Below are positions 45,201-48,200 of a stretch of 64,000 nucleotides of DNA, piece by piece; position 1 is the first letter of the stretch; each line of letters starts with the position of its first letter. The notes beneath the pieces are model-generated. The model was not told the origin of the DNA. It searched no databases and was given only the letters and a program-made list of their open reading frames with translations. Source of the stretch: Magallana gigas. Lineage: Eukaryota. The DNA is taken from NCBI RefSeq assembly GCF_963853765.1, contig NC_088855.1, positions 27,404,001-27,468,000 on the forward strand, read 5' to 3'. A program made the position numbers and the translations under genes.

Positions 45201-48200
45201 CATCTATTGCCAACACCCTGGGTCTCTCCGGAAGTTTCATCCCTGGCAATCAAAAACGCAACCCACCCCGGAGCATTTTCAAGCAGCCATTTGAATGTCA
45301 TTCCTCTGAAATAAAACAAGATTTTCTCAATAAAAACCATAAAAAAAAATTCTTCTAATTTGAATAAATCATTCAAAGGCATTTTTTACTAAATCAAGAT
45401 GATGGTTGATTGTTTATGAAATTATCACAAAAAGTTAAAGAACAGAAACTAACATTTATTTCTATCTTAATGAAATTAATTATTGTTCGGTATTACCGGT
45501 TGTAAGCCTTCCGTCTCACGGATCCAATTGAGGGTCAGCTCAAACTTAGTGATGACAAGTCCAGTATTTCTTTCTCAAGCGGTTTTATTAAGCGTGATCG
45601 TATAGTTACAATAACATCAGCTAATAGCAGCCCAAATCAGGAGTCTGCACAATCTCATTTCATATGGGTATATATAAGGTTTTACTTATGATGGACAGTT
45701 TTGACTAGTTCGGCCCATATACGACGATCATGAGTGAACATTTAGTGTTCAAAATTAAGATTAATATTTTATTCCTAAATAAAGTAACAAAACCGTCAAA
45801 ACTGCCAATCAAAGAGTCTGGATGCAGGATGTGGGTCTCCGAGTCCTGGGTCTCGGAGCCCCCCCACCTAGTATGAGGCATCACTTACTCACAATACGTT
45901 CATTCATACACGGCATAAAAGGTTACAAAGGTTAATATATAGAATACACAATACATGACTCAATATAGAATACTAGAGCATTCGTTGCAGACACAGAATC
46001 GCCAAATAGGTCACATGTTGTTAAACTCTCAATTTGGATATTATTCTGCCCGTATTATGACCTGGTTTCATAACATCATTTAGGAATACTACGCATTGCT
46101 ACAAGAGTCACAGAGTTCATTCTGTCAATTATCATTAACACCATTCAGTGCGCAGCATCTAGGTACACATAAATATCATAGTGACCATTATGTAATACTA
46201 GCAATTCAAGGTCATAGCATGGCTATCTGTTTACATACGTCCCCCAAACAAAAGAAATATCCCGAAGGGAGATTTCTCATGCCTGGCGCCCGGAATAGGA
46301 AAGCGTCCTTGATCTACCCTTGATCAGACGAACTTCCTAGTGACATACCAGTCAGAACATCTATGTTAAGAGATAGTAACAAGTGACATGTTTCCACCTC
46401 CGGCTTGGAACATCATTCATCTACAAAAACAATCTATAACCAGGATGTATACATAAAATCATATATAGTTGTTTGATTATATCGCATTACGACCATGAAA
46501 ACAATAATGAATAAAGTATGACAATAATGATCAAGATGAAAATAATCGTAATTCATCATCAAAGTAATACTAAGTATGGTTAAGCTTGATGTCACATATA
46601 TATACAAAGTCAGTGCATGCTTATAAGTTCACAAAAATATCTCTTCCTTCCTAGGGGCGAGGTTCGCGTCATAAGTTCGGAGTCCATCGGTTTCTTCCTG
46701 AATTTCTCCAGAGTGAATCAACAAATACAAGATTTACATCAGCACAAGATAACGCACATTTCTACTTTAACACATTTCACATTTTTTAAATTTTCGCTAA
46801 ATTTCACAATCCTTTCATAAGGAATACACAACTTCTTCGCGGCTGTAGCTCAATTATTCATCCATCATCGGCACCCGTGGATAGAGGGTCGGCGCGGATG
46901 GCGAGGCGACTTCTCGCGGAGCGTCTCCTGCGTTCCTCTGTTGCGTAGACATCGCGGCCTTCTCTTCCAGGTATTTACGTGCCAGCTCTGGGTCCGGTCT
47001 ATAGTATTTGGTCCATGGAGATTCTTCATTTTTCTCCTCTCCAAGTAATTGTTGTGCTAGTTTAATCGAAATTGTCCCCGTGTTACTGGTCAATTTGCGA
47101 GTTTCGAGTCTTCCGCTCCGTCGGGGTTTCTCTTGGATCCTAGTGTCTTTCGAGATAGGTTCAAGTTCAATAATGTCACTAGAGGTCCATTTCTCTGGAT
47201 TCACACCACAAAATACAGTGTCTTTGGAAGAACCTTTCTTATCTCCGTCACTACCCCTTTTTCGACAACCTGTCCAGCAACCACTACAGCATATACCACC
47301 CCACTTTTGAATAGTTTTACGTTTCTAAATACAAAGTCCTATCATTATTGTTACTGCCAAAGTTAAACACAAATAAAACCAGGGGCTTCCCACCCAAGAT
47401 GAGAATTTTCTGGGTTGCAAATTAATAACTGGCAATTCCGCCATAAGTGTATTCATAGGGAAAACTTTTAAATTAATATATTTTGTCTTAAGATTGAACC
47501 ATGAAAACCTGAGCAACCGTGTCCCTTACTCAAGATGTCGATAGTAATATTTGATTGTTTTTACCAATAATTTTTAATTCATTACAAAAATCAGTCGTAT
47601 AGTTTCCTTACTTACTCGCTGTTTTATATATTTCGAGTATATGTTAAATCTCTTCAACTCCGCATATACAAATAACCGAGGGGCTATGTTCGCGTTTGCT
47701 AGTCAGCGTGTCTCAATACATGTTTTAATGTCACAGGGGGTCATCCTGTCATGTCTTTTTAAAAGCGTGCAATATATACAAAGCTAAGCTTATTCAAGAT
47801 TATTTACATCTACATTATACGATAATAAAACTTTTTCAGTTTATTATTTTGGCTAATTCCTTCATAATAGCCAGACAATCTACAGCAAACTTTTGTTTGC
47901 TATTTTCCCTACGGGGCTTAGGGATTAGTTTACGCGGTTTAGGGATTGGTTTGAAGCCTAGACCTACTTTAGGGGCTATTTCATCTATTTCCATATTTTC
48001 ATCTAAGGGTACATTTGGATTATCTAAGGGTATTTCATAGTCTTGACCACTATTTTCATCACATTGATTTGACTCATGGGTCTCATCCGATTCTGAATCT
48101 ACGGTCTGATCATTCTCGTGTTTATACTGCTGATCATCCATGATCGTCTTAGCTCTTATACGTCTTTGAAGTTCTGCTAGGGGAATATCCTCTTCGTCTG

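What the first reader, a model, noticed from the sequence alone, without database searches (positions are those of the whole stretch)
46854..47456. FAST/sORF-like small membrane protein in the env position of the Gypsy element
Seen: between pol and the 3' LTR, one frame gives ~200 aa with a short N-terminal segment, a ~19-aa hydrophobic helix, a basic patch (KRKTIQK), clustered cysteines (ICCSGCWTGCRKR), a long polar tail and a terminal PSAPTLYP. A single TAG right after the helix splits it, so the ORF track shows two pieces. Established: this layout is that of reovirus FAST fusogens and of small membrane ORFs reported in env-less insect LTR retrotransposons; PSAP and LYPx resemble ESCRT late-domain motifs. 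Inference: a cell-to-cell transmission or budding factor in a bivalve-type retroelement, with the TAG being either a copy-specific mutation or a readthrough codon.
Basis: partly seen in the sequence, partly recalled or inferred. Interest (0 to 1): 0.78.

Follow-up and report, generated by a model that had tools for sequence, protein, structure and literature searches.

The report
Leftover tail of deleted envelope gene
The small membrane-protein frame in this young oyster retrotransposon is most likely the surviving rear end of a mostly deleted viral envelope gene rather than a new cell-fusion protein, although its tail keeps a budding-type motif worth testing.

Summary
The anatomy is real. A 200-codon minus-strand frame (47456-46854), split by one TAG at codon 44, lies between an intact pol and the 3' LTR of a very young Ty3/gypsy element (identical 735-bp LTRs, 4-bp TSD); the closest named relatives are oyster proteins.

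The reading as a stand-alone FAST/sORF2 gene fails. Eight relatives continue in frame 17-137 residues upstream of the supposed start. A piece of that extension survives in the window, out of frame, at 47542-47489 (0 of 1000 shuffles). The longest clean extension resembles F-type envelope clusters in the ESM Atlas (0.93; Baculo_F on 14% of members); Pfam and fold searches did not confirm this.

The element is 0.7-1.3 kb shorter inside than seven His-primed env-F bivalve errantiviruses. Best reading: the membrane-proximal end, transmembrane helix and tail of a deleted env in an env-deficient retroelement, a known fate.

The TAG is not family-wide: 19 of 59 relatives cover codon 44 with a sense residue. 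PSAP (18 of 22) and YxxPhi (17 of 22) are conserved while Gag lacks late motifs, hinting at Env-tail-driven budding in the ancestor. Exaptation as a mini-protein is not excluded (about 0.12).

The parts
53359..54093 (-). 5' LTR, 735 bp, TG...CA
   Evidence: 100% identical to the 3' LTR over 735 bp; sequence
45501..46235 (-). 3' LTR, 735 bp
45497..45500 (+). target-site duplication, left copy (CGGT)
54094..54097 (+). target-site duplication, right copy (CGGT)
53331..53348 (-). primer-binding site, imperfect tRNA-His-like, 10 nt inside the 5' LTR
   Evidence: sequence, compared by eye with the His_GUG rows of PMC13524379 supplementary file 2, whose offsets are 0-20 nt
53300..53306 (-). splice-donor-like AGGTAAG upstream of gag; use not shown
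   Evidence: env is spliced from an exon upstream of gag in ZAM/Beagle-type insect ERVs (PMC12992720)
51918..53237 (-). gag, 439 aa, intact; capsid and zinc knuckles; no P[ST]AP, PPxY or YPx(1-3)L
47836..51939 (-). pol, 1367-codon open frame (PR-RT-RNase H-IN) overlapping the gag end by 22 nt in another frame; frameshift expression inferred
   Evidence: 97-99% identical in core domains to a Magallana gigas gene model, P0021
47489..47542 (-). out-of-frame remnant of the longer ectodomain (18 codons matching residues 25-42 of P0181)
   Evidence: score 54, 0 of 1000 shuffles, null maximum 46; profile E 0.024
47457..47498 (-). in-frame residues upstream of Met1 that still resemble the relatives' extension
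47328..47456 (-). ORF3 piece 1 (43 codons): membrane-proximal segment and transmembrane helix (about 47381-47328)
47325..47327 (-). in-frame TAG, codon 44
   Evidence: sense residue here in 19 of 59 relatives
46854..47324 (-). ORF3 piece 2 (156 aa): basic patch (47324-47304), Cys cluster (47291-47265), polar tail
46890..46901 (-). PSAP (TSG101-type late motif)
   Evidence: 18 of 22 relatives that reach this region
46872..46883 (-). YxxPhi motif after PSAP; not canonical LYPx(n)L in this copy
   Evidence: 17 of 22 relatives
46236..46245 (-). purine-rich tract abutting the 3' LTR (PPT-like)

Best explanation
The frame is the 3' end of an envelope gene, most likely F-type: the last stretch of ectodomain, the transmembrane anchor and a 156-aa cytoplasmic tail. 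In the ancestral oyster errantivirus a full Env was made from a spliced RNA (inferred). Its tail was held at the membrane by the basic patch and probably palmitoylated cysteines, and carried YxxPhi for sorting and PSAP for TSG101/ESCRT-I recruitment, supplying a late motif that Gag lacks (inferred from motifs). In this lineage deletions removed most of the ectodomain (shown: an out-of-frame fragment survives, with about 45 codons missing between it and the frame; only 982 nt lie between the pol stop and the ORF3 stop). The element went on copying itself inside cells with intact gag and pol (shown: open frames, identical LTRs, TSD). The leftover tail now drifts, and the TAG is one such hit, probably already in the parent copy (inferred from the identical LTRs). 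This copy most likely makes no functional third protein.
For: (1) Eight relatives run in frame 17-137 residues upstream of Met1; these are P0181, P0180, P0170, P0139, P0017, P0147, P0176 and P0178, picked by inspection from the 59. The extensions are homologous to each other: P0181 vs P0180 28 of 67 identical, 0 of 1000 shuffles, and three other pairs likewise. P0181 is a true relative of the window frame (E 1e-10). (2) The window holds part of that extension in another frame. (3) Atlas: the short form P0002 gives only leads of 0.84 or less. P0181 gives 0.95/0.94/0.93 to unnamed arthropod clusters and 0.93 to a cluster with Baculo_F on 14% of members; 8 of the 10 best family-bearing hits share a family or clan. 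(4) All 36 bivalve errantiviruses listed in PMC13524379 supplementary file 2 are ENV_F, five of them from oysters. The 7 His-primed ones measure 7797-8444 nt inside against 7123 here. [quoted passage not shown] (6) No fixed start: Met1 is absent in P0139 and P0172, Met5 in P0181 and P0172; neither ATG has a purine at -3; no acceptor with 9 or more pyrimidines in 15 nt lies in 47440-47900 (crude test). (7) Substitutions look neutral: 80 distinct changes among 8 close relatives, mean BLOSUM62 -0.35 against a neutral expectation of -0.46. Pol scores +0.18 to +0.70 against -0.26 in 4 of 5 comparisons. At one shared locus (P0021) the tail is 89.8% identical against 97-99% for pol core. (8) 7 of 59 relatives lose alignment at residues 50-56, just after the helix.
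Against: The env-F label rests on one language-model search with a low recognition score (1374; the tool calls hits below 2300 weak evidence); other viral glycoprotein families also scored 0.90-0.92. Pfam gave no Baculo_F hit for 11 family proteins or for the isolated extension. PDB sequence searches and fold searches of a low-confidence model (pLDDT 58) were uninformative. The BLOSUM test is a weak stand-in for dN/dS, disordered tails tolerate radical changes, and the closest pol pair (P0021, 14 changes) also looked neutral (-0.57). Four relatives keep the frame open from helix to PSAP at 35-88% identity (P0002, P0006, P0172, P0176).
Confidence: 0.78

Rival explanations
1. Exapted Env stump: after loss of the ectodomain the lineage kept the helix-plus-tail as a new small membrane protein started at an internal Met. 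It would work like bluetongue NS3 (membrane anchor plus PSAP, ESCRT-dependent release of capsids in vesicles) or like sORF2 (cell-to-cell passage). This copy is a broken member complemented in trans.
For: Frame open from helix to PSAP in P0002 (200 aa, 37 member sequences), P0006 (192 aa, 8 members), P0172 and P0176 at 88, 58, 35 and 52% identity. The upstream region appears broken in different ways in several relatives while helix and tail stay open. PSAP 18 of 22, YxxPhi 17 of 22. No full-length env found. NS3 uses PSAP to bind TSG101 (PMC7409164).
Against: Protein databases list only open frames, and the unnamed relatives come from contigs of 0.9-3.3 kb where lengths were shown, so open stumps are over-sampled and full env under-sampled. 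Motif conservation is equally explained by selection on the ancestral Env. Neutral-like substitution spectrum, no conserved start, frequent loss of frame after the helix, and a stop in a freshly inserted copy.
Confidence: 0.12
2. Independent FAST/sORF2-type fusogen captured into the env position of an env-less element.
For: Read through, it has 200 aa, one helix after 25 residues, a polybasic patch and a dicysteine. sORF2 lies downstream of pol in 7 of 22 lepidopteran cases (Voichek preprint), and that screen would miss palmitoylated variants.
Against: In-frame, mutually homologous upstream extensions in relatives and an out-of-frame remnant here. Insect sORF2 proteins are 63-107 aa. A basic patch and cysteines after a helix are common in viral glycoprotein tails (recalled).
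Confidence: 0.04
3. The TAG is a programmed readthrough codon giving a short helix-only product and a long form.
For: It sits exactly at the helix/tail boundary; one relative, P0170, also ends at residue 43, by a stop or a contig end.
Against: 19 of 59 relatives, including the 88%-identical P0002, carry a sense residue there. The TAG is followed by AAACGT, not the CARYYA readthrough context (context recalled; sequence).
Confidence: 0.02
4. The parent gene was a longer membrane glycoprotein of another class (not F-type).
For: Atlas rows at 0.92 (rhabdovirus glycoprotein), 0.90 (Monjiviricetes fusion) and 0.85 (gB); no Pfam or fold confirmation of F.
Against: Baculo_F was the best-ranked family set, with 11 hits, and 8 of 10 family hits agreed; 36 of 36 listed bivalve errantiviruses are ENV_F.
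Confidence: 0.04

Closest known systems
Env-deficient retroelement revertants of insect errantiviruses, e.g. accord, rover variants (PMC12992720)
   Same: Intact gag and pol, shortened pol-to-LTR distance, mutated env fragments left in place, donor upstream of gag.
   Different: Host is an oyster; the surviving piece is a long, nearly open helix-plus-tail with PSAP. Germline versus somatic expression untested here.
'Ancient errantiviruses' of bivalves with ENV_F (PMC13524379)
   Same: gag-pol-env order, oyster hosts listed, His-type PBS set 0-20 nt inside the LTR in 7 of 36 rows.
   Different: That study lists intact elements; this one is 0.7-1.3 kb shorter inside and has no full env. Placement in their pol tree could not be tested.
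sORF2/FAST-like proteins of mdg1-group and other insect LTR retrotransposons (bioRxiv 10.1101/2025.03.14.642691); reovirus FAST proteins
   Same: Single helix, about 25 residues before it when counted from Met1, polybasic patch, dicysteine.
   Different: No myristoylation motif, tail over 150 aa, no conserved Tyr after the helix, no fixed start; relatives carry a longer ectodomain. The published screen covered arthropods only.
Bluetongue virus NS3 and retroviral late domains (PMC7409164, PMC8402826)
   Same: PSAP on a membrane protein separate from the capsid protein.
   Different: No homology claimed; NS3 has two helices and PPRY. Here the motif is in what appears to be an Env tail, and TSG101 binding is untested.

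Membership tests
sORF2/FAST-like (Voichek screen criteria) | ORF of 60-210 aa | tested here: met
   200 aa only when the TAG is read as X; as it stands 43 + 156
sORF2/FAST-like (Voichek screen criteria) | single transmembrane helix | tested here: met
   one Kyte-Doolittle window above 1.6; TMHMM/Phobius not available
sORF2/FAST-like (Voichek screen criteria) | N-out, C-in topology | tested here: inconclusive
   4-7 K/R after the helix fits positive-inside; no topology predictor run
sORF2/FAST-like (Voichek screen criteria) | N-terminal MGxxxS/T myristoylation motif | tested here: not met
   absent in 7 of 7 proteins tested; two Drosophila sORF2 also lack it
sORF2/FAST-like (Voichek screen criteria) | self-contained ectodomain of 10-50 aa from its own start | tested here: not met
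   25 aa from Met1 here, but 114-163 aa in P0180, P0181, P0176 and no conserved start
sORF2/FAST-like (Voichek screen criteria) | cytoplasmic region under 150 aa | tested here: not met
   156 aa here, 157 in P0002, 153 in P0006; 117 in P0172
sORF2/FAST-like (Voichek screen criteria) | polybasic region (3 or more K/R in 15 aa after the helix) | tested here: met
   4 here; 4-7 in six relatives
sORF2/FAST-like (Voichek screen criteria) | conserved Tyr directly after the helix | tested here: not met
   not conserved in alignments A3 and A5, judged by eye (feature)
FAST proteins | palmitoylated dicysteine; cell-cell fusion activity | not testable with these tools
   CC present at residues 56-57; modification and activity need experiments
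errantivirus env-F (as parent gene) | third frame between pol and 3' LTR, same strand, with a long ectodomain before a C-terminal helix and tail | tested here: met
   position; extensions in relatives and remnant in window
errantivirus env-F (as parent gene) | similarity to Baculo_F / F-type fold | tested here: inconclusive
   Atlas 0.93, Baculo_F on 14% of members; no Pfam, PDB or fold match
errantivirus env-F (intact) | full ectodomain with signal peptide, furin site and fusion peptide | tested here: not met
   982 nt from pol stop to ORF3 stop, 603 of them ORF3; no ATG-started frame over 13 codons in the spacer
errantivirus env-F | spliced subgenomic RNA | not testable with these tools
   donor-like motif at 53305|53304; no RNA data
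'ancient errantivirus' clade | placement in the RT/IN tree; RNase H plus mini-domain bridge | not tested
   no reference sequences found in the supplements searched; bridge region not folded
env-deficient retroelement revertant | intact gag and pol, recent insertion, degraded env fragments after pol | tested here: met
ESCRT late domains | P(S/T)AP | tested here: met
   residues 186-189; 18 of 22 relatives; binding untested
ESCRT late domains | (L)YPx(1-3)L | tested here: not met
   no match in this copy; only P0172 has the Leu form, the shared pattern is YxxPhi

The most novel reading that the evidence does not exclude
Oyster errantiviruses that lost the Env ectodomain kept the helix-plus-tail under selection as a new small membrane protein. 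It would use PSAP and YxxPhi to send capsids out in vesicles or across cell contacts: an env-derived route to sORF2/NS3-like transmission factors, caught in transition, outside arthropods. A milder new reading (probability about 0.4, my estimate) is that in this lineage the ESCRT late motif sits in the Env tail rather than in Gag.
Probability: 0.12. Interest if true: 0.8.

Novelty: new member of a known kind. Interest (0 to 1): 0.3.

Why it matters
On the best reading it extends the known virus-to-retroelement transition (env decay with continued transposition) to a recently active oyster element. It is also a warning for sORF2/FAST screens: an env stump with an internal Met mimics a FAST protein, so hits downstream of pol need an upstream-remnant check. 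The conserved PSAP and YxxPhi in the tail, with none in Gag, give a testable idea on how bivalve errantiviruses bud. If the stump proved to be selected after ectodomain loss, it would offer an origin for small fusogen or egress proteins, which the sORF2 authors list as open.

Tried and rejected
- Pfam on the read-through frame: only DUF3094 at E 0.014, below cut-off; on 11 relatives and on the isolated extension, nothing relevant.
- PDB sequence searches with P0181 and with profile A5: nothing significant.
- AlphaFold model of P0181 (pLDDT 58, pTM 0.30): no BFVD hit under E 0.001 and only generic helices in the wide PDB search. Uninformative, not negative.
- Atlas with the short intact relative P0002: leads of 0.84 or less.
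- DNA of related elements: the genome-contig scan gave 4 loci. Only L001 (pol 50% identical) was near; its 0.9 kb after pol had no match to the family profile, too distant and short to count either way. Plasmids: no match. No second copy of the spacer in the window. So dN/dS and codon-level comparison could not be done; metagenome and viral contig collections stayed unchecked, as did cluster membership and source names of the unnamed relatives.
- P0168 (714-aa tandem repeat, weak hit) was dropped from all counts as unrelated. P0143 was excluded from the codon-44 count because it has a deletion there.
- Oyster gene models that splice the pol end into the tail (P0003-P0005, P0009, P0021) were taken as evidence of linkage only, not of real transcripts.
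- Literature searches showed no listing describing a FAST-like or env-stump protein in a mollusc retrotransposon; the library lacks most subscription papers, and the bioRxiv supplements of the sORF2 preprint were not seen.

Full report
1. Observation. On the minus strand, 47456-46854 translates to 200 codons with one TAG at codon 44. There is one hydrophobic 19-mer (score 2.13, residues 26-44), then 4 K/R in 15 residues and 4 Cys in 30, a polar tail, PSAP at 186-189 and a YP motif at 192. A stop-free run of 156 codons arose in 0 of 2000 shuffles of the pol-LTR spacer, and P[ST]AP in 114 of 20000 tail shuffles. The description holds, except that the motif is near-terminal and LYP does not complete LYPx(1-3)L.

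2. The element. LTRs at 54093-53359 and 46235-45501 are identical over 735 bp, with a CGGT duplication on both sides. gag (439 aa) and pol (1367 codons, PR-RT-RNase H-IN) are open. Named relatives of both the frame and pol are Crassostrea angulata and Magallana gigas gene models. One of them, P0021, joins a pol 97-99% identical in its core to a tail 89.8% identical, so the linkage of this frame to this pol recurs at another locus. It is a very young Ty3/gypsy insertion of an oyster-type genome.

3. Relatives of the frame. Two word-indexed searches and one full HMMER scan returned 60 proteins; I dropped one tandem-repeat hit, leaving 59. Nineteen of the 59 have a sense residue at codon 44 with aligned flanks, including P0002 (88% identical, 200 aa, 37 member sequences). 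Most others do not cover the site; P0170 ends at residue 43. The stop is therefore not a family feature. Seven of 59 lose alignment at residues 50-56, as expected for decaying copies. PSAP is present in 18 of the 22 that reach it and YxxPhi in 17 of 22, including P0172 at 35% identity. These sequences are related, so the counts are not independent.

4. The frame is the end of a longer gene. The extensions are homologous: P0181 and P0180 share 28 of 67 residues, and all four pairs tested beat 1000 of 1000 shuffles. P0181 aligns to the window frame at E 1e-10. Residues 25-42 of P0181 match the window at 47542-47489 in a different frame (score 54; 0 of 1000 shuffles); the shorter P0180 match at the same place was not significant alone (58 of 1000). 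The family profile finds the piece at E 0.024. About 45 codons present in P0181 are missing between this piece and the frame. Neither Met is conserved in all relatives, both start contexts lack a purine at -3, and a crude scan found no pyrimidine-rich acceptor in 47440-47900.

5. What the longer gene was. In the ESM Atlas the short form scores at most 0.84. P0181 scores 0.95, 0.94 and 0.93 to unnamed arthropod clusters and 0.93 to a cluster with Baculo_F on 14% of members, with 8 of 10 family hits agreeing. Its recognition score is low, and rhabdovirus and Monjiviricetes glycoproteins scored 0.92 and 0.90. Pfam, PDB and fold searches neither confirmed nor excluded F. Context agrees with F. PMC13524379 lists 36 bivalve errantiviruses, all ENV_F, five from oysters. 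The seven with a His primer site measure 7797-8444 nt between LTRs against 7123 here, and this element has an imperfect His-like site 10 nt inside the LTR. Only 982 nt separate the pol stop from the ORF3 stop.

6. Is the stump still selected? With proteins only, I compared substitution quality with a neutral expectation. Eighty distinct changes among 8 close relatives average BLOSUM62 -0.35 (neutral -0.46); pol averages +0.18 to +0.70 in 4 of 5 comparisons (neutral -0.26), the fifth being -0.57 on 14 changes. This fits drift but is weak for a disordered tail. Against drift, four relatives stay open from helix to PSAP at 35-88% identity. That divergence may have built up while Env was whole, and databases of called proteins favour open frames. 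A stop in a copy whose LTRs have not yet diverged was probably inherited from a parent that transposed without the protein (inference).

7. Mechanism. Shown: intact replication genes, recent insertion, a broken remnant of a longer membrane protein, conserved tail motifs, and no P[ST]AP, PPxY or YPx(1-3)L in Gag. Inferred: the ancestor was an env-F errantivirus expressing Env from a spliced RNA via the donor at 53305 (motif; splicing pattern from PMC12992720). Its tail used PSAP to recruit TSG101, as P(S/T)AP does in retroviral Gag and bluetongue NS3 (PMC8402826; PMC7409164), and YxxPhi for sorting (recalled). After ectodomain loss the element replicates within cells. Confidence 0.78; exapted stump 0.12; independent FAST/sORF2 0.04; other glycoprotein class 0.04; readthrough 0.02.

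8. Comparison. It meets the sORF2 screen on length, single helix and basic patch, and fails on myristoylation motif and tail length (criteria; tests). That screen covered arthropods only, and its text has no mention of molluscs, ESCRT or late domains. sORF2 and Env were reported never to co-occur in drosophilid elements (PMC13486581). The closest known kind is the env-deficient revertant: eleven Drosophila lineages lack functional env-F and most keep recognisable fragments after pol.

9. Papers seen. bioRxiv 10.1101/2025.03.14.642691: abstract, sections 7, 8, 10, 12-13, first part of 45, term passages; supplements not seen. PMC13524379: abstract, first parts of sections 5 and 6, section 7, passages, the 36 bivalve rows of supplementary file 2 and term searches of all 7 files. 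PMC12992720: passages and section 7. PMC12945298: abstract and introduction. PMC13486581, PMC8402826, PMC7409164, PMC6238403: passages. Others: search listings only. Eight searches listed nothing on such a protein in molluscs.

10. Verdict. A real feature with a mostly ordinary explanation: an env stump in a young oyster retroelement, a new member of a known kind. The late motif in the tail and the small chance of exaptation keep some interest. Interest 0.3.

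Noticed in passing
window 39244-55888: The LTR element is nested in a roughly 8-kb intron-bearing element with DUF6729 pieces (43407-43937, 42747-43322). That element interrupts a tRNA-Lys gene of the tandem array with about 6 bp duplicated and no terminal repeats found. This resembles tRNA-targeting Dada transposons (name recalled, not tested).
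   Followed up: partly
window 26900-39250 and 55889-64000: Tandem array of about 1.83-kb units, each with tRNA-Met, -Thr and -Lys genes (25 tRNA genes in all); after the insertion several units are shortened to 0.92-1.15 kb and lack the tRNAs.
   Followed up: partly
window 8800-16600: A second, diverged copy of the same spliced transposase-like gene (frames at 11532-14263), next to a G/A-rich coding-like minisatellite at 15444-16412.
   Followed up: no
window 18647-21515: Two long minus-strand frames that look like the endonuclease and reverse transcriptase of a non-LTR retrotransposon (judged by eye).
   Followed up: no
window 638-1009 and 7610-7987: Long inverted repeats 6.6 kb apart, each containing an internal palindrome.
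   Followed up: no
window 47267-47270 and pol end 47900-48600: Several oyster gene models join the pol C-terminus to the ORF3 tail and skip the helix; P0003, P0004, P0005 and P0021 enter the tail at the same residue. Whether RNA supports these joins is unknown.
   Followed up: partly
P0010, P0011, P0017, P0176 (relatives): In one subfamily an internal Met precedes the Cys cluster as MGSCC or MGSICC, an acylation-like start for a helix-less tail product; not conserved in the window copy.
   Followed up: no
L001 1-4945: A bacterial MAG contig is a gypsy pol 50% identical to this element, probably host DNA in the bin; similar pol hits carry symbiont names.
   Followed up: partly
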